The notes beneath the pieces are model-generated. The model was not told the origin of the DNA and searched no databases. It saw only the letters and a program-made list of their open reading frames with translations. Positions 953 to 38,932 of a stretch of 64,000 nt of DNA are shown piece after piece. The number at the start of each line of letters is the position of its first letter. Position 1 is the stretch's first letter. A program made the position numbers and the translations under genes. The stretch comes from Escherichia phage Eps7, in the sequence record NC_010583.1, one strand, 5' to 3'.

Positions 953-1031
953 TGGTGGAGAATAACGGAATCGAACCGTTCTGATGTCCTCGGTGCAAGC
1001 GAGGTGTCCACTCCATGCAGACCCATTCCCC
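953..1031 (-). tRNA. tRNA (anticodon also reads UGC; identity uncertain)
   Basis: T-arm aacgg/aatcgaa/ccgtt, acceptor ggagaat/attcccc, hairpin cctcg-gtgcaag-cgagg; 7-nt variable loop. Confidence 0.5.
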
Positions 1032-1304: not shown

Positions 1305-1544
1305 GGATATTCCTTCTAGTTTACTAAGGCTATTAGCTCGGTGTGCGTATTACCCTCAGACATTAGCCAGTAGAGGATAATCGCTCTTCACAAACCCGAT
1401 ACACTATTCAGTTGCCGCTGAATCTAGCGGACTAATCTAGAACTTCTCCCGAGTCGTAGGGATCGTGCTTTTTTGGCAGCCAGTCCTAGGTCGAGCTAAT
1501 ACCTTAGTGAACTTTGATGAGGATTTCTCCTCATCAATTTATAT

Positions 1545-2556: not shown

Positions 2557-2721
2557 TATTAATTAGCATAGACTTCCTTAATAGAATAAACTTTTAAGTT
2601 AAGGTGATTAATACCAAATTCCGCCATCACTTCGTTTTCATCTTTACCGTAATGGGCTAGTGGATACTTCTTACGATCTTTGCTAGAACGTAGATCACTT
2701 ACTTTTAAACGAAATAATTTC
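2557..2721 (-). CDS. hypothetical small protein (54 aa)
   Basis: ATG-initiated ORF MKLFRLKVSDLRS... found by manual translation; below the 60-aa ORF-track cutoff. Confidence 0.3.
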
Positions 2722-2743
2722 ATTTCGAAATCCTTCTATTAAA

Positions 2744-2820
2744 TTGGAAGCGGGTGCAGGAATCGAACCTACCTCTTTCTAGCTTATGAGACTAGCGATC
2801 TCTACCAGAGATCTAACCCG
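2744..2820 (-). tRNA. tRNA with CAU anticodon (Met or Ile-lysidine; tentative)
   Basis: T-arm gcagg/aatcgaa/cctac, acceptor agcgggt/acccgca, anticodon arm ctagc-ttatgag-actag. Confidence 0.55.
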
Positions 2821-2827
2821 CAATTGT

Positions 2828-2906
2828 TTGGTCTCCGTGGGAGGATTTGAACCCCCCGACCCTATCGCCCCAAACGAAACGCTCTGGCCAAACTGAGCTA
2901 CACGGA
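2828..2906 (-). tRNA. tRNA-Pro (anticodon UGG; tentative)
   Basis: T-arm ggagg/atttgaa/ccccc, acceptor ctccgtg/cacggag perfect, D-arm gctc...gagc, loop ccccaaa. Confidence 0.55.
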
Positions 2907-2934
2907 GAATATTCTTTGTTAACTCACTTTATAA

Positions 2935-2992
2935 ATATATTATACAGAGAATTAAGCTAAATAGCAACTACATTTTTAATAAATTTACTTAT
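2935..2992 (-). promoter_or_regulatory. T5-type early promoter cassette driving tRNAs at 2744-2906
   Basis: RC shows -35 GTTGCT, spacer, -10 TATAAT, conserved leader; tRNA begins about 30 nt downstream. Confidence 0.55.
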
Positions 2993-3212
2993 TAGGTAAG
3001 TCACCGAGCTATCAACTCATGCTAGCGAAAGTTTGCGAGACCTTCTTTAAGTACTAGAACACACCCGCCGATGTGTCGGACTTACTTAATAAGTAAACTT
3101 TCGTTTACTTACACCTACCTGGTCGGGAGGATTTTCAGCGACTAGAACCGGCCGGAAACTCATCGCCTTGTTTATCTAGGAGTCCGTTCTCTAGGAAGCA
3201 GAAACCTAAATT

Positions 3213-3287
3213 TGGTGCGGTCGGAGGGAATCGAACCCTCAACTTCTGGTTGGCAACCAAAAAATTATACCTTTTAACTACGAACGC
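3213..3287 (-). tRNA. tRNA-Gly (anticodon GCC; tentative)
   Basis: T-arm gaggg/aatcgaa/ccctc, acceptor gcggtcg/cgaacgc, anticodon arm tctgg-ttggcaa-ccaaa. Confidence 0.55.
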
Positions 3288-3295
3288 ATAATAAG

Positions 3296-3500
3296 TCAAT
3301 CTAGGCAGGACTTGAACCTGCTATCACTTGTGCGGATTTACGAGAACCATTCTTTCACTCGAATCGAACGAGCTTCTACCCTCGGCAAGCTGGTGTCCCC
3401 TCTCCACCACGCTAGAATGATAATTAATGCCTGCTCCTTTGAATCAAGAAGTCCACCCCGGACTTTGGGTCTTTGCAGTACATCACGCTGCTCTGATGTT
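3296..3500 (-). other. tRNA-like elements (T-arm hairpins without complete cloverleaf); possible tRNA pseudogenes or small ncRNA
   Basis: Two strong T-arm-like hairpins (gcagg-acttgaa-cctgc at 3306-3322; actcg-aatcgaa-cgagc at 3357-3373) but no matching acceptor stem found by eye. Confidence 0.3.
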
Positions 3501-3576
3501 TGGTACACCCACTAGGACTTGAACCTAGAACCCTCCGCTTAAGAGGCGGTAGCTCTAACCATTGAGCTATGGATGT
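3501..3576 (-). tRNA. tRNA (possibly Lys, anticodon CUU)
   Basis: T-arm ctagg/acttgaa/cctag perfect, D-arm gctc...gagc, acceptor acaccca/tggatgt, loop ttaagag. Confidence 0.5.
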
Positions 3577-3654
3577 ATTATTATGTTTTGCAGTGCTCTA
3601 AATATAGACACTTCCCACGCGGTGGTTATCTATACCAGCGTCCTGCAAAAATTG

Positions 3655-3731
3655 GCGCGACCGATGGGATTCGAACCCACATTTTCTCCCGTGACAGGGG
3701 AGTACCATTACCAAGCCAGCCCCGATCGCAT
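3655..3731 (-). tRNA. tRNA-Asp (anticodon GUC)
   Basis: T-arm atggg/attcgaa/cccac, acceptor gcgaccg/cgatcgc, perfect anticodon arm ctccc-gtgacag-gggag. Confidence 0.65.
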
Positions 3732-3752
3732 AATTTATTTACTCAGTTTTGA

Positions 3753-3936
3753 GTTTTTCGATAGCTTCCTCAACCTCTTTTAGAGCTTCACGACGGGCAT
3801 TCTGTTGCTGCATATCTTGAATTAATGTCAGTTTTTGTTTTTAATTTCTTGATCCCAAACCTTAATATTATTAATCAGACTATCACGATCAGCTTCTAGT
3901 CGAGCAATTGCACGAGTTGTCATATCTATTTCCTCA
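3753..3936 (-). CDS. hypothetical small coiled-coil protein (about 60 aa, apparent frameshift)
   Basis: Two short adjacent ORFs (MTTRAIARLEADRD... and ...MQQQNARREALKEVEEAIEKLKTE) join across an A5CA5 tract; manual translation only. Confidence 0.25.
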
Positions 3937-4025
3937 GTTATTAATGAAAATGGTATCTGTGACTGAATTCAATATCAGTAATGATAGCTGGTTGGCTACC
4001 GGTTTACTTAACTCTACACAGAATA

Positions 4026-10633: not shown

Positions 10634-10709
10634 TGGCCGAGGTGACAGGATTCGAACCTGCATAAAGGAATTTAGAAGACTCCTGCCTATCCCTTAGACT
10701 ACACCCCGT
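10634..10709 (-). tRNA. tRNA-Arg (anticodon UCU; tentative)
   Basis: T-arm acagg/attcgaa/cctgc, acceptor cgaggtg/caccccg, anticodon arm ggaat-ttagaag-actcc. Confidence 0.6.
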
Positions 10710-11791
10710 TTAGGTATTTTTAAGAACTCTTATAAAAGCTCTTAAAGATACCCGACGGTAGGTAGGGTCAGCCCCCTCAGATTAAGCTCTGCAGCCCTTC
10801 CGTCAGACAATATCTTCCAGTTTAAGTCAGGGTGACTTTGTGGTTATGTTCTCCGTATGTGAAGAACTCGGTTAGGCTTAGGTCATGACTCCCAGCCTAC
10901 TGCTGCCACTCAACAGGAATTATCGCGAATTACCTGTACTATTGGGCACCATTAGTGACATCTCTCATGTCAGCGTTTCCCACTCTCATATTCACGCGGT
11001 CTGTTAGAATCGCACCTCCGATTTTCGATGCGAAGCTGGATGCCTAGTCTCAGGTTAAACGGGGCACACACTAGGCAGTGATCCCGAGTTCCGAGTTTGG
11101 TTGAGGCCGTCAGGTTTCCTCGTGGTTTAGCTGTTTCGATTCTAACCTAATACTGATCAGGTGGCGTACCTCCTGAACCGTCATAGTATGTACTCCAGCA
11201 GCGAATGCTTATCCGGTATAAGCCCGAGTTATCCGATTCTTTCCAGAAGGAGCAGTAAAGCTCAATGTCAGCCTGTGAGCATCTGGCAGTGTTATCACAT
11301 AAGTCAGTTCGACACCCCACATTTTAGTGCCTGGTAGATCCCGAATGAAGCCCTCAGTCGTTAGACCTCCATCATTCATCAAAGATTTACGCTACCCACT
11401 ATTCGATGGACAATCGCCGCATTGTGGTATACATACGTTTTCACTTGCATCCTAGACGGGTCAGCGTTGAAAGTTATATGGGTTTCTCAAGCCCAACCTT
11501 CAGTCTTCTACCCCTGGGACACGCACCGTATTTCACACTGTGCCTAGCTCCTGTTGAGACCCATCGTTTTGTATAAATTAGAGAAGAGTTTAGAGGAGAG
11601 GTTTCAGACGCCTCATTTTACAAGAAGTCTCGAACCTATATTCGTTACTCTAGTCACTTGGCCGGATATACCGGACTGGACTCGGAACTCTAACAGGTGA
11701 TCATTCTTAACCCACCGACTCTATTCAGTGTCAGAAGCTATCACTAGGTGAATCGCTAAAGCTCACTCAGCGTAATCGGCTCGCTGTTCTC
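10710..11791 (-). ncRNA. candidate large structured non-coding RNA (about 1.05 kb), co-transcribed with tRNA-Arg
   Basis: No ORF of 60 aa or more in any frame over about 1.1 kb; stops dense in all frames; GC visibly higher than flanking genes; conserved promoter cassette at 5' end, tRNA at 3' end. Confidence 0.3.
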
Positions 11792-11838
11792 TAATTTATG
11801 AATCTATTATACAGAATTTTGGAACGTTTAGCAAATCA
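11792..11838 (-). promoter_or_regulatory. T5-type early promoter cassette driving the ORF-free region and tRNA-Arg
   Basis: RC: -35 TTTGCT, -10 TATAAT, conserved leader start; no ATG or RBS follows. Confidence 0.5.
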
Positions 11839-30419: not shown

Positions 30420-30915
30420 ATTTATATTGAATTGAGAGACATTAGTAAAAATTGATTTTGCTAATTTTTCTTGTTTACAATCCGCAATACGGAACAGTTA
30501 GGCTGCCCCATTAAGGGTTGTTTTAACTATTACTAGTGTTTATACTGCATTAGTTAATTATCAATTAAGTGATCTGCGTACCCTGAATTCGGAAAGGTAA
30601 ATCCAAACCGTGCATATTTAGCTCGTTATATAGGCAGAGCTTTATATGGGGGTGCGAACGAAAAGAGCAGCGAATGGTGACACGTCCAGTAGCCACCTAC
30701 CAATAGGATAGTGAGGGCAATCAGAATCGGCTTAGCGGCCAATGACCTAGGTTCTGATCTGGATAAGAGTTAAGAGAGCGCAGCACTGAGGTATGATAAC
30801 TTATTCATACTGCTTGATGATGATTAATGTTTGTGTAAATGGTAGTAATAGTTGTTCTATTCTTTTGAATAGTCCTAAAGAAAGATATTCGAATAACCAA
30901 CATAGGAGTATTGTT

Positions 30916-33705
30916 GTGTTCTCAATCCTACAAGGTCACGCAGGATTTTCCAGAGATAAAGCTACTGGCATCTGGAAAGAGATCAAAGTGGAAGATTACA
31001 CCTTTGCAAAGCGATTCTCTAAAGAGCATCCAGAAGGTAAACCAGCTTCCATGCCCTTCAAATTTGATGTACTTGAAGAACTTGACCCGCAAAACCTTGC
31101 TGAAATGTTACCTATCATGCGTCGTCTTACCAAAGACCCGCATATTGTAGCTATTCGTGGTAAATGTTTAGCCCCAAAAGATAATGTGCGTCGTACCAGG
31201 GGAAACTTTAACGTATCCAATCCTAGTCATATTATTGCTATGGACGTGGATGGTATTGTAGATACTGGTGGCTATGACAAGTTTAATCTTGTTGGCATGG
31301 CACGTCATATTATTAAGATGTTGAATAGTATTAGTGAGGATATGTTTCCTCTTGATGCAGGGTTTATTGCCCATGCATCGTCTTCGGCTGGATTAAAACC
31401 AGGTATCCGAATGCACTTAATGCTAGAATCTAATGTCAAGGTAACGCAGGGACAGTTAAAGTTCTTATTTACATCTATCAATGATAGTAGTAAGCAAAAG
31501 TACGGCTTTGATATTGCTGACTTAGCTTATTATTCTTCTGTTCAGCTTCACTATTTCGCAGATCCCTTATTTGATGATGGTATAGTCGATCCGTTTAAAG
31601 CGGAGAATAAACCACGTCTTGTGTATGTTAAGGGTTCGAAGGTAAATCTACCTAATAACCTAGTTGACTTTGAAACAACTAGAGGTGAGTTTAAAGAAGA
31701 GTTCTACTCCTTACTTGACCAAATTAAAGGCAAGAAGGCTGCATCTGATAAAGTGGAAGAAACCATCAGCGAACTAGAAGAAGCTGAGGATGGAGTGTAC
31801 CTGCGTATTATTCCAAAACTTTATCACAGAGCGTTAGAAGATGGTGTTGACTTTACGTGGTTAGAACGTGAAATTAAACCAGCTTTATCTGAGTATATTG
31901 CGACTAAAGATAATAGTCGTAATATTCAAGATTACTTTAATAACGGTCGTAAGCAGGCTCTCAAAGCCTTTGTAAATAACTCCAAACGTGAGATTCCACC
32001 AAACTTAAAAGGTGTACCATTAAAACGTCTAGACACAGATTCTCCACCAGAAGTTCCATACCTGAAAATTAACATTGTACCACCAAAAGGACATTTAACA
32101 TTTGTTAAGGCAAGTCTTGGTACGGGTAAAACTACCGCAGTAACTAAGTGGCTAGATGCAGGTGTTCTTCCAGGAAACTTTATTGCAATCACAAATACTA
32201 GGGCACTTGTATCTTCTAACGCGAAGAAATTCGGTGCTGGCCAGTATGATAAGTCAGTTGATATGCTGAACTTCAAACGTGGTGCCATTGATCGTATGTC
32301 TTCAACTATTCACTCTATCCATAAGTTCAAGAGCTTTGTGGGTCAGATTGATACGATCTTTATTGATGAATGTGACGCAGTAATGAATGATCTGTTATTC
32401 GCTCCGGTTGTTAAAAACCGTCGTGAATGTATTCAGGTTCTTCGTGATATCCTTATTACTGCTAAAACTGTTATCTTATCCGATGGTGATATCAGTGCAG
32501 AAACGATTGAAGCCTATGGTTCTTTGATTGATTTTGATAAACCAGTCGCATTTTATAATCACCACCGTAAAATGCTGGCGAAAGCTCATGCTTATGAATT
32601 CCCTGATGAATCCAGTATTTGGGTTGCACTTCAAACATCTTTAGAGATGGGGGAGAAATCAATCCTAGTATCTGACTGTGGCCCGGATGAACTGAATGAG
32701 AAGGGAATGGCATTACGTCGTAATACTGGTGCGTTAGTTAAAGAAATTCACTCAAACTCTACGTCTGATGTAGATATCCGACGTATTCTGGATTATACAA
32801 CTAATGAGCTAATTGATCAACAGATTGATTGTTTATTATGTAGTCCATCTGTAACGAGTGGTGTTGACTTTAACTATTTTGATAACGTATTCGTAATCAC
32901 TAGAACCTCAAACCAAGCGCCAAACATGCGTTTTCAAGCAATCAGGCGCGACCGTGGTGCTCAGAACATTTATTATTTTATTGATAAATCTACGAGTGGA
33001 TTTTCTGCGGGTTCCGAGCAATATAATATTGACGAAGGTTGGATTGAGTTAGCCCAACAACTGTACGCACGTCGTCGTGAGCTGGAATCTAGAAACTATA
33101 CCAGTACTTTGCGGTATTATCTTCTCGATCAAGGTGCAACTATTGATATTTTCAGTGAAAGCTGGGGAACTATCGAAGGTGCAGGCAAAGAGTATACAGA
33201 AGAGCGAATCAAAGCTATTTTGCACTCAACTCCTGAATATTGCGCACCACGTCATGCAGACGCATATGAAGCTAAATTGCTTCTGGTTCGCTATTATCAT
33301 CTGGATTCTATCAAAGATGTAACAGTGGAACATGTTGAACAGTATATCAAGGATAAACCGAATGATCGAGCTGCATTTTTCCACAAGATGCACGACATGT
33401 TCTGGGAAGATATTAAAAAGTGTTCAAACGTAACAATCAAACCGTTTATCGAAGCTCTTAAGAATAAGAAGAAGGATTTCTTCCTTAAGACAGGTCAGAG
33501 CGCTAACCCAAAATATGCTCGTATGTATCTTGGCATGATGGGTATCGGTAAAGATCTGGATACGGAAAAGATTGTGGACTGGTACAGAACTTACTGTAAG
33601 ATCGAATGTATGCCGATTCCAGTTAAGTTTATGACAGACGAAGAACGTCAGATGCACGAGGAAGCTCTTGCTGAATTGGGAGCTAGAAATGACAGTGAAG
33701 AATAA
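30916..33705 (+). CDS. large P-loop NTPase/helicase-like replication protein (putative origin-binding protein)
   Basis: Walker A GTGKTT, DExD-like IFIDECD; likely start GTG 30916 with AGGAG RBS 7 nt upstream (ORF track starts at 30793). Confidence 0.55.
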   Translation: MFSILQGHAGFSRDKATGIWKEIKVEDYTFAKRFSKEHPEGKPASMPFKFDVLEELDPQNLAEMLPIMRRLTKDPHIVAIRGKCLAPKDNVRRTRGNFNVSNPSHIIAMDVDGIVDTGGYDKFNLVGMARHIIKMLNSISEDMFPLDAGFIAHASSSAGLKPGIRMHLMLESNVKVTQGQLKFLFTSINDSSKQKYGFDIADLAYYSSVQLHYFADPLFDDGIVDPFKAENKPRLVYVKGSKVNLPNNLVDFETTRGEFKEEFYSLLDQIKGKKAASDKVEETISELEEAEDGVYLRIIPKLYHRALEDGVDFTWLEREIKPALSEYIATKDNSRNIQDYFNNGRKQALKAFVNNSKREIPPNLKGVPLKRLDTDSPPEVPYLKINIVPPKGHLTFVKASLGTGKTTAVTKWLDAGVLPGNFIAITNTRALVSSNAKKFGAGQYDKSVDMLNFKRGAIDRMSSTIHSIHKFKSFVGQIDTIFIDECDAVMNDLLFAPVVKNRRECIQVLRDILITAKTVILSDGDISAETIEAYGSLIDFDKPVAFYNHHRKMLAKAHAYEFPDESSIWVALQTSLEMGEKSILVSDCGPDELNEKGMALRRNTGALVKEIHSNSTSDVDIRRILDYTTNELIDQQIDCLLCSPSVTSGVDFNYFDNVFVITRTSNQAPNMRFQAIRRDRGAQNIYYFIDKSTSGFSAGSEQYNIDEGWIELAQQLYARRRELESRNYTSTLRYYLLDQGATIDIFSESWGTIEGAGKEYTEERIKAILHSTPEYCAPRHADAYEAKLLLVRYYHLDSIKDVTVEHVEQYIKDKPNDRAAFFHKMHDMFWEDIKKCSNVTIKPFIEALKNKKKDFFLKTGQSANPKYARMYLGMMGIGKDLDTEKIVDWYRTYCKIECMPIPVKFMTDEERQMHEEALAELGARNDSEE

Positions 33706-33922
33706 AAAGTGGGAAACAAGGAAGTTTCCAGTAAAAGAACGTAAAACTTCTGTTTACGATACTGCGGAGAAACTATGTAGGGTTGTACCACCTCGTCTCG
33801 CTGGCATCCCTAATGTCTCCATATGGTTACTTAAACAACGGAAGACTCGTGTGTCTCTTCGCATTGGCTTTGAGTTAGATAAAGTCTATGCTGAACTTGC
33901 TTCTTTGCTCAAAGAATCATAA
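33689..33922 (+). CDS. hypothetical protein (77 aa)
   Basis: ORF MTVKNKKWETRKF... overlapping previous stop. Confidence 0.45.
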   Translation: MTVKNKKWETRKFPVKERKTSVYDTAEKLCRVVPPRLAGIPNVSIWLLKQRKTRVSLRIGFELDKVYAELASLLKES

Positions 33923-33931
33923 AAATTTTAT

Positions 33932-33960
33932 TTGCTTTCAGGAAAAATTTTCTGTATAAT
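33932..33960 (+). promoter_or_regulatory. T5-type promoter (TTGCTT, 17 nt, TATAAT)
   Basis: Conserved leader ...ATAAATTTGAGAGAGGAGTTTAAAT then ATG at 33992. Confidence 0.6.
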
Positions 33961-33991
33961 AGATTCATAAATTTGAGAGAGGAGTTTAAAT

Positions 33992-34696
33992 ATGGCTGGT
34001 TCTCGTAGAAAGAAACTTATCCATGAAATCCCTGATGAAACCTTTAAAAAGGTTATTGAACATCTGGAGAATGGTGGTACTAAGAAAGCAGCCTGTGAGA
34101 TGCTCGGTGTTTCTTCTAACCCAACTATGGAACGAATGATCGAGGAATGGAGAGATCGTCAGGTTCAAGTTGCGGAAATGAAAAAGAAGAAGCGCGGAAC
34201 ACTAATTGAAGGTGTTGAGCTTGCAAACGTAATTGAACAGTATCTTTCTGGTGATTCTTTTGAAGAAATCGCAGATCGTAACTATCGTTCTGTAGCGATG
34301 ATTAAATCTGTTCTGGAACGTTATGGTGCTCTGCTTCGTTTAAACGATATTGTTGATCCATTGAATCCTCCATTGATTCCTGATGATGCAATGGCAGAAG
34401 AATTTGAAGTTGGCGAACTTGTTTGGGTTCCCGGCTACCAGTGTATTGGTGAAATCAAGAAAGCAATGACTAACCCAGTTGGCTGCTACCGTGTTTGGTT
34501 GTTATCAGAAGGTAAACAACAGAACGTTCACTATATGCACTACGAATTAGCTTCTGTTAAACATCTGGAAAAGCTGGGAGTTGATGTTAAAGCTCTGGGC
34601 TTTAAATGGAGCCGTGAAGAAGTTATCACGTTGGTTAATGAAGCTGTTAAAGCCGCCCTGAAACTCGATAAAGAGAAAGGAAAACGTCGTGAGTAA
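33992..34696 (+). CDS. hypothetical protein (234 aa), possible HTH DNA-binding regulator
   Basis: N-terminal helix-turn-helix-like segment (GGTKKAACEMLGVSSNPTMERMI); strong promoter. Confidence 0.55.
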   Translation: MAGSRRKKLIHEIPDETFKKVIEHLENGGTKKAACEMLGVSSNPTMERMIEEWRDRQVQVAEMKKKKRGTLIEGVELANVIEQYLSGDSFEEIADRNYRSVAMIKSVLERYGALLRLNDIVDPLNPPLIPDDAMAEEFEVGELVWVPGYQCIGEIKKAMTNPVGCYRVWLLSEGKQQNVHYMHYELASVKHLEKLGVDVKALGFKWSREEVITLVNEAVKAALKLDKEKGKRRE

Positions 34697-34922
34697 ACTA
34701 ACTGATCTGTTAAAAGCTGGAGACGTGAAATATCTCCAGCGAGATAGCTGGAAGAACACCCGAGACTTTACATTCTTGTTAAAATTTGATGTAGATAGTG
34801 ACACTGTTAAGCTATATGAGTGGCCTAGTATACACTGCGTACGCCCGATAGTAACAGTAGTTAATCTTAGTCTAGAAGAAGCTCTGGCCGACGATTGGGA
34901 GATCGTTGAACTAGATGTGTAG
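34689..34922 (+). CDS. hypothetical protein (77 aa)
   Basis: ORF overlapping previous stop. Confidence 0.5.
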   Translation: MSKLTDLLKAGDVKYLQRDSWKNTRDFTFLLKFDVDSDTVKLYEWPSIHCVRPIVTVVNLSLEEALADDWEIVELDV

Positions 34923-34942
34923 CAGTTACTGAAAAATTTCAG

Positions 34943-34971
34943 TTGCTTAATCCTGTAATTCTTGATATAAT
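34943..34971 (+). promoter_or_regulatory. T5-type promoter (TTGCTT, 17 nt, TATAAT)
   Basis: Preceded by a short palindrome (actgaaa..tttcagt). Confidence 0.55.
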
Positions 34972-35029
34972 ATTCTCATAGTTTGAAAGAACTATTCTGT
35001 TTAATTCTTAATTAAGGAAATCGAAAAAT

Positions 35030-35440
35030 ATGACTACTCCAACTCAGTGGACTGATGAACTGTTCGAAAAAATGTCTTCCGACTACGTTGCTCGTATGGA
35101 GCAATTCCCAGAAGATGAGCGTCCGGGCGTTAGCATGGAAATTGTTAGCGAAATTGCTCAGGAAAATGGTGTAACTCCGAACGGTTTCCGTATGAAGCTG
35201 ACCAAAGCAGGTCTGTATATCAAGAAAGCTGCTGGCTCTACTTCTAAATCAAGCGCATCTACTGGAGAAAAAGCTTCTGGTGGTTCTCGTACTTCCAAAG
35301 CTCAGGCGCACTCCGATCTTCGCTCTGCATTCTCTGATGCTGGCTTAGCACCGGACTTCCTGGACGACGCAATCATCGACAAGCTGACCGGTAAAGCAGC
35401 TGCTCATCTGGCAGAAGCTATCCGAGCTATCACTAAGTAA
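35030..35440 (+). CDS. hypothetical protein (136 aa), probably abundant
   Basis: Codon usage strongly biased to preferred codons (GCT, GGT, CTG, CGT). Confidence 0.6.
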   Translation: MTTPTQWTDELFEKMSSDYVARMEQFPEDERPGVSMEIVSEIAQENGVTPNGFRMKLTKAGLYIKKAAGSTSKSSASTGEKASGGSRTSKAQAHSDLRSAFSDAGLAPDFLDDAIIDKLTGKAAAHLAEAIRAITK

Positions 35441-35476
35441 TTCTTAGATAAATCCACCAACACAAGGAATACAGTT

Positions 35477-35773
35477 ATGAATAAAGCTGAAATTATTGCT
35501 CAATGCGAAAAATTTGGTGAGTTTTATCTTCATTACGAAAAACTTCGTCAGAAAGGAACCACGTACCTTCAGGGTACGATGGAGTTTGATCCAGCTCAGG
35601 ATAAATACCTGGCTGAGCGTATTAAACGTGAGCGCATCCGTAAGCCGAAAGAAGATGAAATCCTAGTTTTCTCTCGTACTAACGATAGCTTCCGTTTCAT
35701 TCCTGTTGTGAAAGTTCGCCGTGTGACGAGCCTCCAGTCAGAGTTAGATCGTGCTTCTCCAGTAGGCCGATAA
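35477..35773 (+). CDS. hypothetical protein (98 aa)
   Basis: ORF followed by terminator. Confidence 0.55.
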   Translation: MNKAEIIAQCEKFGEFYLHYEKLRQKGTTYLQGTMEFDPAQDKYLAERIKRERIRKPKEDEILVFSRTNDSFRFIPVVKVRRVTSLQSELDRASPVGR

Positions 35774-35783
35774 GAAACCAATT

Positions 35784-35808
35784 AGCCCCTATATGGGGCT
35801 TTTTGTGT
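35784..35808 (+). terminator. intrinsic terminator
   Basis: agcccctatatggggct then TTTTTGTGTATTT. Confidence 0.6.
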
Positions 35809-35823
35809 ATTTGGGATATGTAA

Positions 35824-36132
35824 ATGAGCGATCAGGTAAATCAAAACTATGAAGGACACATTGACGACCAGTCCATCATGCTTTGGGAGAAGGACGGGGA
35901 ACAAGTAAGACTAACCGTATCTGAATTTCGTGGGAATCTATACATGGGAATTCGTTACTGGCTCCAAGATATTACTGGAGAGTGGTTTCCAACGAAATCC
36001 GGCTTCTCTTTTCCTTATACCCTAGAAACTACATCACAGCTATTTTACGCTTTTACGCAAATCCTCAGTGAATCCGAGGTCTTGCATGAAGTACAGAAAC
36101 GAGCTGAAGAACTCAAAGCCAAGAATGCCTAG
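35824..36132 (+). CDS. hypothetical protein (102 aa)
   Basis: ORF followed by terminator. Confidence 0.55.
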   Translation: MSDQVNQNYEGHIDDQSIMLWEKDGEQVRLTVSEFRGNLYMGIRYWLQDITGEWFPTKSGFSFPYTLETTSQLFYAFTQILSESEVLHEVQKRAEELKAKNA

Positions 36133-36146
36133 TTCTTGGCTTTTTC
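36118..36146 (+). terminator. intrinsic terminator
   Basis: gccaagaa-tgcctag-ttcttggc then TTTTTCTTT. Confidence 0.55.
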
Positions 36147-36159
36147 TTTATAAATGTAC

Positions 36160-36188
36160 TTGCTTTCGACTCAGTTTTGTTATATAAT
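36160..36188 (+). promoter_or_regulatory. T5-type promoter (TTGCTT, 17 nt, TATAAT)
   Basis: Leader ATTTATATAAATTGATGAGAGATATAAATAA then ATG at 36220. Confidence 0.6.
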
Positions 36189-36219
36189 ATTTATATAAAT
36201 TGATGAGAGATATAAATAA

Positions 36220-37191
36220 ATGACTAATGTAAAAGAATTTATTAAACGCTGTCAAGAAGCATATTATCAAGGTATGTCTTTAATCTCTGACGAAGAATAT
36301 GATCGTCTGATTAAAAGATTCCCACTAGAGGAAGAAATCGGACCGAAAGGTGATATTCCTCATTTGTATCGTATGTATTCTTTGCAGAAAGTCTATTACG
36401 GTCGCGGTGATAAAGCTCCATTCAATCCATTAGGTCAGGTTGAAACTGATAAGTTAGATGGTTGTGCGATTTCTCTATTATATATTAATGGTGAATTTGT
36501 TCAAGCGTTAACTCGTGGTAACGGTATTCTAGGGAATGATGTAACGCATAATGTTAAAATGCTGAACATCCCCAAAACTATTTCCCAAAAAGTACCAACT
36601 CAAATCACTGGTGAAGTTCTCATTACTAAAGAAGTAGAGAACAAACGTAACTACGCTTCGGGTGCTATTAACCTGAAAGACAGCGATGATTTCATCCAAC
36701 GTATTGGTGAAGGTGGTTTAATCTTCGTTGCATACGGTATCCAGTGTTCAGCGGAAACAGTCGGTATTACAGAAGCCTATTTAAAAGATATGCTTTGGCT
36801 AGAGAATGAGAACTTCTTGACAGTTGTTAATGTTCGTTCCTTTTTTAAATGGATTCCGACGGACGGTAAAGTTGTTCGTATTAACGACAACAATAAATTC
36901 TTCCGTGAAGGTTGGACTAATAAATTTCCTCGTGGTGCATTTGCTATTAAAGAGGATGAAGAAGGCGAAATTACCACACTTGTTAAAGTTGAATGGCAAG
37001 TAGGGGCTTCTGGTAAAGTAACTCCAGTTGGTTATTTCGAACCGGTGATTATTGATGATGCCACAATCGTTAAAGCAACTCTTAATAACGTTGATTATAT
37101 TAACGCTCTCGATTTAGAGATCGGTTGCCAGATTCGAGTGATTCGTGCTGGTGGTGTAATCCCTTGTATAGTAGAGCGAGTATACGACTAA
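36220..37191 (+). CDS. ligA: NAD-dependent DNA ligase, N-terminal subunit (adenylation + OB domains)
   Basis: Adenylation motif I ETDKLDGC (KxDG), LigA-like N-terminus ...EEYDRL...; 323 aa ending before the Zn-finger/HhH/BRCT part. Confidence 0.75.
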   Translation: MTNVKEFIKRCQEAYYQGMSLISDEEYDRLIKRFPLEEEIGPKGDIPHLYRMYSLQKVYYGRGDKAPFNPLGQVETDKLDGCAISLLYINGEFVQALTRGNGILGNDVTHNVKMLNIPKTISQKVPTQITGEVLITKEVENKRNYASGAINLKDSDDFIQRIGEGGLIFVAYGIQCSAETVGITEAYLKDMLWLENENFLTVVNVRSFFKWIPTDGKVVRINDNNKFFREGWTNKFPRGAFAIKEDEEGEITTLVKVEWQVGASGKVTPVGYFEPVIIDDATIVKATLNNVDYINALDLEIGCQIRVIRAGGVIPCIVERVYD

Positions 37192-37239
37192 TTCGTAACC
37201 CTTTGCTACCCGTTTACCATGTCGGAATTATAAAGTGGT

Positions 37240-37268
37240 TATTGACATTTTCGCCGCTTAGGTATATA
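37240..37268 (+). promoter_or_regulatory. sigma70-like promoter (TTGACA, 17 nt, TATACT) between ligase halves
   Basis: Near-consensus hexamers; followed by an 8-codon micro-ORF (MARVSKVS). Confidence 0.5.
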
Positions 37269-37334
37269 CTATTATCATTCAGTTGAGGGATAGAAAGTTA
37301 TGGCGAGGGTAAGCAAAGTTAGTTAAAATTGTAG

Positions 37335-37363
37335 TTGCTAAATGCTTAAATACTTGCTATAAT
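37335..37363 (+). promoter_or_regulatory. T5-type promoter (TTGCTA, 17 nt, TATAAT) for ligase C-terminal subunit
   Basis: Conserved leader ATTTATATAAATTGATAAGGAAGAAATTTG then ATG. Confidence 0.55.
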
Positions 37364-37393
37364 ATTTATATAAATTGATAAGGAAGAAATTTG

Positions 37394-38172
37394 ATGAAAA
37401 TCGAAATTCCAACACAATGTCCCTCTTGTGGTTCTAAGCTAGATCTTGTCAACGGGCAATTATTCTGTAGGAATAAGTCCAACTGTCCAGCGCAATCAAG
37501 TAAGTTAATCGAGAACTTCTGCACAAAAATGAAGTTAAAGGGCTTTGGCCCGAAAACTATTGAGAAGCTGGAGCTGACTAAGATCTCAGAACTGTTTTAC
37601 CTGACCGAAGAAGATTTGGTCGGAGCTGTGGGTAGCAAGGTTGCCGCTAAATTGATTAGCGAGTTAAATACAAGGTTCGCGGAGACATTGACTTTGGTTC
37701 AGTTCTCGGTTCTTTAGGAATTCCTCTTATTGGAGAGGTTGCAGCAAAGAAACTGTCCCAAAATTGCACTAGCTTCCACGATGTGAAGGCTGACGGCAAG
37801 GCTGGAGAAAATTACAAAACCTGGCTAAATTCCCCACAAGGCAAGGATGTTATTGAATTACCGTGGAAATTCTCAACTGGTATCCGAGGTGCTAAAGCTG
37901 ACATCATCATTACAGATGATTTAGTTGCCCAGCCAAATGGAATCACGGTCTGTATTACCGGATCTTTGCAAGATTTTGCAAATCGAACGGATGCAACAAA
38001 CTATTTAGAAAGTCTAGGGTATACGGTTAAGAAGTCCGTTACCAAAGACGTCAAATACCTAATCTGTGAGGATGAATCAAAACGTTCTTCCTCATCTTAT
38101 AAGAAAGCCGAAACGAATGGGATAGAAATCCTGTCGATTAAAGAACTATTGGAGAAAAATAATAATGTCTAA
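37394..38172 (+). CDS. ligB: NAD-dependent DNA ligase, C-terminal subunit (Zn finger, HhH, BRCT); frameshifted at T3 tract 37713-37715
   Basis: Zn-finger CPSCGSKL...[10 protein letters not shown], HhH ([14 protein letters not shown]), BRCT-like VCITGSL...; a T4 tract gives ...[13 protein letters not shown] matching LigA ...FLYALGIREVGE. Confidence 0.65.
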
Positions 38173-38932
38173 ACTGAACTGGAACGTAGAAGGTGTAACC
38201 GAGTCTCTGAAAGCAAAAGCCACTGCTCTGGGTGTTGCTGTAATCTCTCAAGAACAAGTAGCTGCTATCGCTGCTGAACTGGCTACCGAGACTGGTAAAG
38301 ACGTTACCGCTCGCTCTGTTGGCTCTAAGCTGCGTAAAGAAGGTTTCGAAGTACAGAAAGCTAACGAAGTACAGAAATCCCCGTGGACTCCTGAGCAGGA
38401 AGCTGAACTGGTTGATTTCCTGAACGCTCATGCGGGTCAGTATACTTACGCTGAAATCGCTGCTGCTGTAGCTGGTGGTCAGTTCGGTGCTAAGCAGGTT
38501 CAGGGTAAGATCCTGAGTCTGGAAATGACTGCTTCTGTTAAGCCAACCGAAAAAGCTGCTGCTGTTCGTTCCTTCACTCCTGACGAAGAAACTGATTTCG
38601 TTAATCAGGTTGTTGCTGGTGCTACTATTGAAGCTATCGCTGCTCACTTCGGTCGCAATATTAAGCAGATCCGTGGTAAAGCTCTGAGTCTGCTTCGTGA
38701 AGGTCGTATCGCTGCTATGCCGGTACAGGAAACTTCAAGTGCTAAAACTCGTGAAGATCTGTTAGAAGGTCTGGATCTGGCTAACATGACTGTTGCTGAG
38801 ATCGCTGAGAAAACTGGTAAGTCTGAGCGCGGTGTTAAATCTATGCTGTCTCGTCGTGGTCTGGTTGCTAAGGACTATGATGGTGCCGCTAAGCGTGCTA
38901 AACTGGATGCAAAAGCTGCGGCTGCTGAATAA
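38165..38932 (+). CDS. putative DNA-binding protein with four internal repeats (255 aa)
   Basis: Four repeats of about 45 aa (...ARSVGSKLRKEG, ...KQVQGKILSLE, ...KQIRGKALSLLREG, ...ERGVKSMLSRRG); highly optimised codon usage. Confidence 0.5.
   Translation: MSKLNWNVEGVTESLKAKATALGVAVISQEQVAAIAAELATETGKDVTARSVGSKLRKEGFEVQKANEVQKSPWTPEQEAELVDFLNAHAGQYTYAEIAAAVAGGQFGAKQVQGKILSLEMTASVKPTEKAAAVRSFTPDEETDFVNQVVAGATIEAIAAHFGRNIKQIRGKALSLLREGRIAAMPVQETSSAKTREDLLEGLDLANMTVAEIAEKTGKSERGVKSMLSRRGLVAKDYDGAAKRAKLDAKAAAAE

What the first reader, a model, noticed from the sequence alone, without database searches (positions are those of the whole stretch)
2993..3212. Intergenic 220-nt segment between tRNA units rich in stable hairpins
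Between the tRNA at 3213-3287 and the next promoter cassette lie several perfect hairpins, including taagtaaac-tttc-gtttactta and ccgccgatgtgtcgg, with no ORF. It could be a processing or terminator element for the upstream tRNA transcript, or a small RNA.
Basis: seen in the sequence. Interest (0 to 1): 0.3.

Follow-up and report, generated by a model that had tools for sequence, protein, structure and literature searches.

The report
T5-type stable RNA IV plus spacer
The 220-base gap in this T5-like phage's tRNA cluster holds a divergent copy of phage T5's long-known but functionally unexplained small "RNA IV", preceded by an unannotated string of RNA hairpins; it is not a terminator.

Summary
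The window is a T5-like phage (Epseptimavirus, 99% identical to Salmonella phage SB13). All of its tRNA genes are on the minus strand, and the segment makes sense only on that strand.

- **RNA IV (3087..2993, minus strand).** This is the ortholog of T5 rnaIV, annotated in GenBank as "stable RNA with unknown functions". It lies between the tRNA-like RNA2 and promoter P13a, as in T5. It is a divergent allele, 71% identical to the T5 copy.
- **Structure.** Twenty-four distinct homologs support a cloverleaf-like four-helix fold: 99% of cells paired, 9 pairs with compensatory changes, 0 of 500 shuffles as good. The fold is closed by a 22-bp terminal helix. It carries an invariant 7-nt loop, CUCGCAA, built like an anticodon loop.
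- **Segment X (3212..3088, minus strand).** T5 lacks it, but 210 phage records have it. It is a chain of four hairpins. The first is replaced by unrelated hairpins in different phages.
The perfect 9-bp hairpin is real (GAAA loop). It competes for one arm of the RNA IV terminal helix. The second hairpin is not the helix that comparison supports.
- **Negative results.** There is no terminator, no conserved ORF, no Rfam match and no host homolog.

The family is known, its function is not, and interest is modest.

The parts
2993..3087 (-). RNA IV ortholog (about 95 nt). A cloverleaf-like four-helix RNA; a divergent allele of T5 rnaIV.
   Evidence: It aligns with T5 rnaIV (NC_005859 32838-32940) in the same synteny. 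The covariance model built from 24 homologs scores 102.8 bits (E 1.4e-23) on the minus strand and 27.5 bits on the plus strand. The single-sequence MFE gives the same four helices. The ends are inferred from the T5 annotation.
2996..3002 (-). P1, 3' strand (pairs with 3079-3085); the acceptor-like closing helix.
   Evidence: One G-C to A-U compensatory pair separates the window type from the T5 type.
3058..3077 (-). P2 hairpin: 8 bp (3077-3070 with 3065-3058), loop GGCG.
Evidence: Two compensatory double changes (U-A to C-G and G-C to C-G).
3022..3057 (-). P3 long arm (5 bp, an asymmetric internal loop, then 6-8 bp). Its apical 7-nt loop CUCGCAA lies at 3039-3033.
   Evidence: The 13-nt segment GUCUCGCAAACUU is invariant in all 24 distinct homologs. 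The stem has compensatory changes. The loop fits the pattern Y-U-NNN-R-N (direct reading).
3006..3018 (-). P4 short variable hairpin.
   Evidence: Several sequence variants keep a hairpin here, and 3 pairs show changes on both sides.
2981..2993 (-). 3' arm of the flanking stem (AAUAAGUAAAUUU). It overlaps the upstream edge of the promoter cassette.
   Evidence: Inverted repeat I1. It is invariant across homologs, so there is no covariation. In T5 it overlaps the annotated P13a region by 7 nt.
3088..3101 (-). 5' arm of the flanking stem (AAAGUUUACUUAUU). It is shared with the 3' arm of hairpin X-P4.
   Evidence: It is conserved in every homolog, including T5, which lacks segment X.
3089..3112 (-).
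   Evidence: Estimated free energy is -9.4 kcal/mol, against -10.4 for the competing flanking duplex.
3114..3130 (-). X-P3: small variable hairpin.
   Evidence: One U-A to C-G compensatory change in GSW6 (columns 92/104).
3137..3167 (-). X-P2: conserved hairpin GGCGAU...GUCGCU that encloses UUCCGGCCGG.
   Evidence: It is present in all 13 distinct X variants. The motif occurs only in T5-like contigs of IMG/VR.
3174..3211 (-). X-P1: variable hairpin directly after the tRNA 3' end, at the junction ACCA|AAU.
   Evidence: At least six unrelated sequences occupy this slot in different phages, and each folds as a hairpin. One G-C to A-U compensatory change occurs within the window type (columns 14/39).
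3213..3287 (-). tRNA-Gly(GCC), the upstream neighbour, with an encoded CCA end. It is absent from T5.
2939..2967 (-). Promoter (homolog of T5 P13a) that drives the next tRNA unit (tRNA-Pro, tRNA-Met).
   Evidence: 10 of 12 consensus matches; T5 annotation.

Best explanation
The segment encodes non-coding RNA on the minus strand, co-transcribed with the phage tRNAs.

Its 3' 95 nt (3087..2993) are this phage's version of T5 RNA IV. This is a roughly 100-nt RNA that folds into a cloverleaf-like four-way junction. It is closed by a long terminal helix: 9-bp P1 plus a 13-bp flanking stem.

The T5-annotated mature ends fall at the internal loop between those two stems. I therefore infer that host RNases excise the RNA from the polycistronic tRNA precursor at the base of P1. 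RNase III-type cleavage of the 22-bp helix, or RNase P plus 3' trimming, would both fit.

The functional site is most likely the invariant anticodon-loop-like apical loop CUCGCAA, which would be recognised by a protein or RNA partner. The rest of the molecule is a structural scaffold.

The 5' 125 nt (segment X) are a modular hairpin spacer between the tRNA-Gly CCA end and RNA IV. It begins at an RNase E-type CCA|AAU junction. Its last hairpin sequesters the 5' arm of the RNA IV flanking stem.

Shown: homology, synteny, strand, fold, and the absence of a terminator. Inferred: accumulation in this phage, the nucleases involved, and the role of the loop. The confidence given applies to the identity and the processed-RNA reading, not to the role of the loop.
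For: **Identity**
- The window is a T5-like phage (taxonomy).
- T5 RefSeq and phage 5 records annotate rnaIV as 'stable RNA with unknown functions', immediately upstream of P13a and downstream of RNA2.
- The window aligns there in the same order.
- Of the 367 phage records that match the 95-nt query, the four records in the listed sample that annotate the locus call it rnaIV.

**Structure**
- The RNAalifold consensus has 49 pairs. 99.2% of cells are paired, 9 pairs have changes on both sides, and 0 of 500 shuffles reach this. Slid controls give 1-3 such pairs.
- The window allele is only 71% identical to T5, yet its own MFE gives the same four helices.
- With flanks, z is -4.53.
- The model scores 102.8 bits on the minus strand and 27.5 on the plus strand, and finds one copy per genome.

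**Loop**
- GUCUCGCAAACUU is invariant in all 24 distinct sequences.

**Processing context**
- T5's other stable RNAs also have paired 5' and 3' ends, and RNAI ends in GCCA.
- E. coli RNase E cleaves 1-3 nt after encoded CCA (abstract of PMC2190699).

**Segment X**
- It is found in 210 records, and 183 of them are at least 95% identical.
- The hairpin architecture is kept while X-P1 and X-P3 sequences are replaced.
Against: - No expression or end-mapping data exist for this phage. The ends are transferred from the T5 annotation, whose primary papers I could not read.
- Covariation rests on few lineages. The model's effective sequence number is 0.75. Most double changes come from the single split between the window-type and T5-type alleles.
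- The flanking stem and X-P2 never vary, so they are neither supported nor refuted as RNA helices. The 3' arm overlaps the promoter's upstream region, which could explain its conservation.
- The T5-annotated ends give 1-nt 3' overhangs, not the 2-nt overhangs of canonical RNase III.
- T5Mos, which lacks 30661-38625 including rnaIV, grows on laboratory E. coli (PMC11464382). Any function is therefore accessory.
- Segment X may be degraded spacer with no function of its own.
Confidence: 0.8

Rival explanations
1. The region is a transcription terminator or attenuator that ends the upstream tRNA transcript before the next promoter.
For: It lies at the end of a tRNA unit, directly before a promoter. 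It is hairpin-rich.
Against: The terminator scan finds nothing on the minus strand in 2600-3800. The helices followed by U-rich sequence are AU-rich, not GC-rich. The expert T5 and phage 5 annotations mark terminators elsewhere and none here.
Confidence: 0.05
2. The region is a decayed tRNA relic, or several. RNA IV and X would be pseudogenes left by tRNA gene duplication. They are transcribed and trimmed because they keep tRNA-like ends, but they have no function of their own.
For: - RNA IV has a four-way junction and a 7-nt anticodon-like loop.
- There are weak collinear similarities: window RNA IV to the tRNA-like RNA2 (family-wise p about 0.015), and T5 RNA IV to tRNA-Tyr (p 0.005, family-wise 0.17).
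- X resembles the 3' half of tRNA-Pro (per-test p about 0.005).
- The region is dispensable in T5Mos.
Against: - Compensatory changes in every helix and an invariant 13-nt loop segment, across alleles that differ by 29%, indicate purifying selection rather than neutral decay.
- The X to tRNA similarity is not significant family-wise (p 0.42).
- Rfam tRNA and ARAGORN do not recognise either part.
Confidence: 0.2
3. The conservation reflects DNA-level elements rather than RNA. Candidates are the promoter upstream (UP) region, recombination junctions, or homing-endonuclease target sites that drive module exchange in the tRNA region.
For: - The interval between RNA2 and RNA IV is a hot spot of module exchange with sharp junctions at ACCAAAU and AAAGUUUACUUAUU.
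- HNH endonuclease genes sit in T5 and phage 5 tRNA regions.
- The 3' flank overlaps the promoter cassette.
- X-P2 contains a GC-rich palindrome, CCGGCCGG.
Against: DNA-level constraint does not predict strand-specific folding. It does not predict base-pair compensation. It also does not predict replacement of X-P1 by unrelated sequences that still fold as hairpins.
Confidence: 0.1
4. The region encodes a small protein. Several phage records annotate 'hypothetical protein' here.
For: Records SB13, Sepoy, SmurfNell and PMBT31 carry CDS calls over the segment. A 25-codon frame starts at the AUG inside X-P2 (direct reading).
Against: That AUG is AUA in OSYSP, phage 5, L019 and KKP_3711. The only ORF of 30 aa or more runs through tRNA-Gly from a TTG start. 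The substitution pattern is pair-compensating.
Confidence: 0.02

Closest known systems
Bacteriophage T5 RNA IV (rnaIV, locus T5s05; also annotated in Salmonella phage 5, AJ604531)
   Same: It is orthologous. It has the same position (RNA2, then RNA IV, then promoter P13a, then tRNA-Pro), the same strand and the same four-helix fold. The 13-nt loop segment is identical, and so are the flanking stem sequences.
   Different: The window allele is 95 nt against 103 nt and only 71% identical. It has compensated stems and a different P4. It is preceded by tRNA-Gly plus the 125-nt segment X, where T5 has an 18-nt spacer.
The other T5 'stable' and 'tRNA-like' RNAs of the tRNA region (RNAI, RNAIII, RNA2H, RNA1, RNA2, RNA3)
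   Same: They are encoded among tRNA genes on the same strand. They are 73-172 nt long, and their 5' and 3' ends pair like an acceptor stem. RNA2 has a loop, CUCGUAA, that matches the RNA IV loop at 6 of 7 positions.
   Different: There is no significant overall sequence similarity except a weak match to RNA2. RNA IV lacks a recognisable T arm and has no encoded CCA.
Phage T4 species 1 and species 2 RNAs (rnaC, rnaD) at the end of the T4 tRNA cluster. Recalled from memory, not tested here.
   Same: They are small stable RNAs of unknown function, co-transcribed with phage tRNAs and cut out by host tRNA/RNA-processing enzymes.
   Different: They come from an unrelated phage family. I did not compare sequences or structures.
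tRNA (Rfam RF00005)
   Same: RNA IV has a four-way junction with a closing stem formed by its two ends. It has a 7-nt loop with U at position 2 and purines at positions 6-7. It sits in a tRNA operon.
   Different: It is not detected by ARAGORN, nor by the Rfam tRNA model even at E up to 10 in a 236-nt search. P2 is 8 bp with a 4-nt loop. P3 is 13 bp with an internal loop. There is no conserved T loop, and the 3' tail is CUA/CA rather than NCCA.

Membership tests
T5 RNA IV (rnaIV) family | Sequence homology to the annotated T5 rnaIV gene | tested here: met
   Alignment A1/A2. blastn places the query on features named rnaIV in AY543070, AY692264, NC_005859 and AJ604531. The covariance model scores 102.8 bits, E 1.4e-23.
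T5 RNA IV (rnaIV) family | Position: same strand as the tRNAs, downstream of RNA2 and immediately upstream of promoter P13a and tRNA-Pro | tested here: met
   RNA2 homolog at 3295-3419. Promoter at 2967..2939. tRNA-Pro at 2829-2907. T5 gene order.
T5 RNA IV (rnaIV) family | Shared secondary structure | tested here: met
   99.2% of cells paired and 9 compensatory pairs. The window's own MFE gives the same helices.
T5 RNA IV (rnaIV) family | Accumulates as a discrete stable RNA of about 100 nt in infected cells | not testable with these tools
   This rests on the GenBank annotation 'stable RNA' for T5 and phage 5. There are no data for this phage.
tRNA | Recognised by tRNA detectors (ARAGORN; Rfam RF00005) | tested here: not met
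   No call in 2993-3212. No RF00005 match at E up to 1 in 12 kb, nor at E up to 10 in 236 nt.
tRNA | Cloverleaf topology with a 7-nt anticodon loop (U33, purine 37) | tested here: met
   A four-way junction of P1-P4. The loop is C-U-C-G-C-A-A (direct reading).
tRNA | Canonical arm sizes, conserved D and T loop residues, and a 3' NCCA end | tested here: not met
   P2 is 8 bp with a 4-nt loop. P3 is 13 bp with an internal loop. The P4 loop varies (UUGAUAG, UUGGUAG, CUUGAAC, UUGAA). The 3' tail is CUA in the window.
Intrinsic (rho-independent) terminator | G+C-rich hairpin followed by a U tract on the transcribed strand | tested here: not met
   No minus-strand site in 2600-3800.
Any curated Rfam family (release 15) | Covariance-model match | tested here: not met
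   The only matches are an IRE_I fragment (16.9 bits against a gathering score of 34) and an 18-nt glmS fragment. Both are chance-level.
RNase III processing stem (as around rRNAs and in T7 early RNA) | About 20 bp or more of helix with cleavage at or near an internal loop, giving 2-nt 3' overhangs | tested here: inconclusive
   A 22-bp helix with a 2x2 internal loop is present. The T5-annotated ends fall at that loop but imply 1-nt overhangs (my indexing). Cleavage itself cannot be tested here.

The most novel reading that the evidence does not exclude
RNA IV is a tRNA-derived mimic of an anticodon arm. Its invariant CUCGCAA loop would titrate or misdirect a host factor that reads anticodon stem-loops, such as an anticodon nuclease of an anti-phage defence system or a tRNA-modifying enzyme. 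It would then belong with the T5 tRNA-Lys that neutralises PARIS, as part of a counter-defence toolkit in the tRNA region. Segment X, through the choice between hairpin X-P4 and the flanking stem, would control how much RNA IV is released from the tRNA precursor.
Probability: 0.1. Interest if true: 0.75.

Novelty: new member of a known kind. Interest (0 to 1): 0.33.

Why it matters
T5's non-tRNA 'stable RNAs' appear in expert GenBank annotation, and from memory were first described in the 1980s. They have no assigned function and no Rfam family, and are left unannotated, or overlaid with spurious 'hypothetical protein' calls, in nearly all of the T5-like records I saw listed.

This work adds four things:
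- a covariation-supported structure for RNA IV;
- the observation that only its anticodon-like loop is invariant in sequence;
- a divergent natural allele;
- a description of the unannotated hairpin module X.

Together these make the RNA testable with loop mutants, pull-downs and panels of hosts carrying defence systems. That is timely, because phage tRNA-region RNAs are now known to counter tRNA-targeting immunity (PARIS, PMC11464382). In practice, the result also flags CDS calls over this interval as probably wrong.

Tried and rejected
- **Rfam.** Searches of 12 kb (E up to 1) and of the segment alone (E up to 10) found no family.
- **Terminator scan.** Nothing on the transcribed strand.
- **X as a decayed duplicate of RNA IV.** Local alignment is no better than shuffles (p about 0.26).
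- **X as a tRNA relic.** The alignment to the 3' half of tRNA-Pro looks good (GGCGAU, GGUUC, AAAUCCUCCC, GACCA in order; per-test p 0.005). Family-wise p is 0.42, so I do not claim it.
- **RNA IV derived from a tRNA or from RNA2.** The evidence is only suggestive (family-wise p 0.015 for the window, 0.17 for T5).
- **Small ORF in X.** The start codon is not conserved.
- **Paralogs or distant homologs.** The model finds one copy per genome. It finds none in the tRNA regions of Klebsiella phage Sugarland or Proteus phage Stubb at E up to 10.
- **X-P2 motif outside T5-like phages.** The other seven IMG/VR loci hit by the pattern are unrelated G+C-rich sequence, so chance matches.
- **Host or plasmid homologs.** None in 5,426 E. 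coli genomes or in PLSDB.
- **RNA IV loop pairing with RNA2H.** There are 11 complementary bases in T5 and phage 5 but only 8 in this window, so I did not pursue it.
- **Literature.** The primary T5 stable-RNA papers are not in the searchable library.

Full report
**What the window is**

ARAGORN finds 21 tRNA genes in the first 11 kb, all on the minus strand. A 1.1-kb query around the finding is 99.3% identical to Salmonella phage vB_SenS_SB13 and 99.2% to Escherichia phage PSa2. PSa2 is classified Demerecviridae; Markadamsvirinae; Epseptimavirus. The query matches 517 T5-like records in all. The finding therefore has to be read on the minus strand. On that strand it lies 3' of tRNA-Gly(GCC) (3287..3213) and 5' of a sigma-70 promoter (TTGCTA-17-TATAAT, 2967..2939). 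That promoter precedes tRNA-Pro and tRNA-Met.

**Checking the observation**

- The perfect hairpin is real: arms 3090-3098 and 3103-3111, 9 bp, 4-nt loop. On the RNA strand it reads UAAGUAAAC-GAAA-GUUUACUUA.
- The second quoted hairpin is only a 4-bp stem (ccga/tcgg, 3068-3079).
- The largest repeat was missed. It is a 22-nt inverted repeat, 2981-3002 with 3079-3100, 91% complementary, that brackets 76 nt.
- Folding is strand-specific. For 2908-3212, z is -2.94 on the minus strand and -1.07 on the plus strand.
- For the bracketed unit 2979-3101 on the minus strand, z is -4.53 and none of 200 shuffles folds as well.
- No ORF of 30 aa or more lies in the segment, apart from a TTG frame that runs through the tRNA.

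**Identity of the promoter-proximal half**

The T5 RefSeq record was annotated by the group that studied the T5 tRNA region. Its gene order reads: tRNA-Asp, T5.067, misc_RNA rna2 ('tRNA-like stable RNA'), misc_RNA rnaIV ('stable RNA with unknown functions', 32838-32940), promoter P13a, T5.066, tRNA-Pro. The separately annotated tRNA region of Salmonella phage 5 has the same rnaIV feature.

Aligning the window with T5, AKFV33 and Stitch places window 3087..2993 on rnaIV. The window RNA2 homolog lies at 3295-3419. A blastn search with the 95 nt alone hits 367 phage records. In the four listed records that annotate the locus, the feature under the match is 'rnaIV: RNAIV'.

The window carries a minority allele. 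Only 30 records are at least 90% identical to it. The common T5 type aligns by blastn only over positions 8-59, at about 81%. Global identity to T5 RNA IV is 71% (74 of 104 columns).

**Structure of RNA IV**

I collected 24 distinct homologs with 14-nt flanks, from IMG/VR isolates and GenBank records. RNAalifold gives a four-way junction with these elements:

- **P1:** 9 bp, formed by the two ends.
- **P2:** 8 bp with a GGCG loop.
- **P3:** 5 bp, an internal loop, then 8 bp, capped by a 7-nt loop.
- **P4:** a short hairpin.
- **Flanking stem:** 13 bp (AAGUUUACUUAUU with AAUAAGUAAAUUU), which continues P1 across a 2x2 internal loop.

Counting on the alignment gives 99.2% of cells paired and 9 pairs with changes on both sides, spread over all helices of the RNA itself. 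None of 500 shuffles reaches this, and slid controls give 1-3 such pairs. The window sequence alone folds into the same four helices.

There are caveats. The structure was derived from these sequences. The effective number of sequences is low (0.75). Most double changes come from the one split between window-type and T5-type alleles. The flanking stem never varies, so comparison neither supports nor refutes it.

P2 is the alternative with compensation: U-A to C-G and G-C to C-G. In addition, the U-to-C change in three sequences (L007, L011, L058) breaks the 4-bp stem but improves P2.

**The loop**

Across alleles that differ at about 29% of positions, the 13 nt GUCUCGCAAACUU are invariant in all 24 sequences. 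This segment is the top of P3 plus its loop. The loop C-U-C-G-C-A-A follows the anticodon-loop pattern: pyrimidine, U, three bases, purine, N.

Local alignments put this arm on the anticodon arm of tRNA-Ser(UGA), matching AGGUCUUGAAAACCU. They also put it on a CUCGUAA loop of the neighbouring tRNA-like RNA2.

The evidence that RNA IV descends from a tRNA-like gene is only suggestive. Family-wise p is 0.015 for window RNA IV against RNA2, and 0.17 for T5 RNA IV against its best hit, tRNA-Tyr. RNA IV is not a tRNA by any detector.

**The other half, segment X (3212..3088)**

T5 and AKFV33 have 18 nt where the window has tRNA-Gly plus 125 nt. X occurs in 210 records, and 183 of them are at least 95% identical. 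No record I fetched annotates X as an RNA, and a few place a 'hypothetical protein' over it.

Thirteen distinct variants show a fixed frame:

- **Junction:** ACCA|AAU at the 3' end of the upstream tRNA or tRNA-like RNA.
- **X-P1:** a hairpin that exists in at least six unrelated sequence forms.
- **X-P2:** a conserved hairpin (GGCGAU...UUCCGGCCGG...GUCGCU).
- **X-P3:** a small variable hairpin. In NBSal002, smaug and one other phage it is replaced by about 150 nt of extra structured sequence.
- **X-P4:** the GAAA hairpin.

Compensatory changes occur in three places:

- X-P1 has G-C to A-U (columns 14/39).
- The second X-P1 form has CACU/AGUG changed to CACC/GGUG (direct reading).
- X-P3 has U-A to C-G (columns 92/104).

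A 25-codon frame starts at the AUG inside X-P2, but four variants lose that AUG. X shows no significant similarity to RNA IV or to any tRNA once multiple testing is allowed for. The X-P2 motif occurs only in T5-like contigs of IMG/VR.

**A structural conflict**

The 3' arm of X-P4 (GUUUACUUAU) is also the 5' arm of the RNA IV flanking stem. The two pairings exclude each other and have similar estimated stability: -9.4 kcal/mol for the hairpin and -10.4 kcal/mol for the duplex.

RNAalifold on the full X plus RNA IV alignment chooses the long-range stem. The single-sequence MFE that includes the upstream arm chooses the hairpin. T5-type phages lack the upstream arm and can form only the long-range stem. 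Whether this conflict matters for processing is unknown.

**How it most likely works**

*Shown.* The RNA IV fold is conserved and strand-specific. It is a single-copy gene in a tRNA transcription unit. There is no terminator on the transcribed strand, no Rfam family, and no homolog in E. coli genomes or plasmids.

*Inferred.* The unit is transcribed from an upstream tRNA-region promoter. The precursor is cut after the tRNA-Gly CCA, because E. coli RNase E cleaves 1-3 nt after encoded CCA (PMC2190699 abstract). RNA IV is then released at the internal loop between the flanking stem and P1. The T5-annotated ends map to alignment columns 15 and 117.

A 22-bp helix with an internal loop resembles an RNase III substrate. 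However, the implied overhangs are 1 nt rather than 2. RNase P plus 3' trimming is an equally good candidate, because all T5 stable RNAs have acceptor-like paired ends.

The function is unknown. T5Mos lacks 30661-38625, which includes rnaIV, and grows on ordinary E. coli, so the RNA is accessory (PMC11464382). I take the invariant loop to be the functional site. I give low probability to the attractive idea that it is an anticodon-arm decoy against tRNA-targeting defence.

**Comparison and novelty**

The RNA IV half is a member of a known, annotated family that is poorly characterised and absent from Rfam. This copy is a divergent allele. T4 species 1 and 2 RNAs are the nearest analogy I can recall, but I did not test that.

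The model finds no copy in the tRNA regions of Sugarlandvirus or Novosibvirus phages. Among the genomes I tested, the family is therefore confined to the Markadamsvirinae.

Segment X was not annotated as RNA in any record I inspected. It may be a functional leader or merely a structured spacer.

**Verdict**

The 'small RNA' reading is right, and the 'terminator' reading is wrong. Interest is modest.

Noticed in passing
window 3295-3421 (-): Homolog of T5 RNA2 ('tRNA-like stable RNA'), 89.6% identical. It has acceptor-like ends, a clear T arm (GCAGGUUCAAGUCCUGC) and a 7-nt loop CUCGUAA. Neither ARAGORN nor the Rfam tRNA model calls it. Its loop matches the RNA IV loop at 6 of 7 positions.
   Followed up: partly
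window 3951-4023 (-): Homolog of T5 RNA3 ('putative tRNA-like RNA'), 94.5% identical, next to tRNA-Asn. No tRNA was called there.
   Followed up: no
window ~1330-1501 (-): Homolog of T5 RNA2H (a 172-nt stable RNA). The first 113 nt are 94.7% identical and the rest has diverged. In T5 and phage 5, RNA2H nt 106-116 (GUUUGCGAGAU) are complementary to the invariant RNA IV segment GUCUCGCAAAC. In this window only 8 bp of that complementarity remain.
   Followed up: partly
window 10709-10984, 11572-11622 and 11764-11793 (-): Patchy homology (80-98%) to 'RNAX', a 785-nt 'stable RNA with unknown functions' annotated after tRNA-Arg in Salmonella phage 5.
   Followed up: no
window 953-1031 (-): A second tRNA-Ala(UGC) called by ARAGORN, directly next to the first. 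It scores only 23.6 bits in Rfam, and as tRNA-Sec. It may be a pseudo-tRNA or a tRNA-like RNA.
   Followed up: no
L002 (Salmonella phage Stitch) about 2015-2122; absent from the window: Stitch-type phages carry an extra tRNA-like module of about 107 nt between tRNA-Gly and X. Its acceptor-like ends read GUGGAGA...UCUCCAC-ACCA and its T arm reads GCAGGUUCGACUCCUGU. It is not annotated.
   Followed up: no
window 3088-3294 and the homologous interval in L004, L110, L115 and L116: The interval between RNA2 and RNA IV is a hot spot of module exchange with sharp junctions. T5 has 18 nt there. Phage 5 has an ORF plus X. The window has tRNA-Gly plus X. EH2 has an ORF plus X. NBSal002 and smaug have X with about 150 nt of extra sequence.
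   Followed up: partly
window 3501-3576 (-): tRNA-Lys(CUU), a second lysine tRNA that T5 lacks. It may be relevant because a T5 tRNA-Lys neutralises the PARIS defence (PMC11464382).
   Followed up: no
window 3422-3500 (-): A spacer of about 79 nt between tRNA-Lys(CUU) and RNA2 with no annotation. It aligns poorly with the T5 sequence upstream of RNA2.
   Followed up: no
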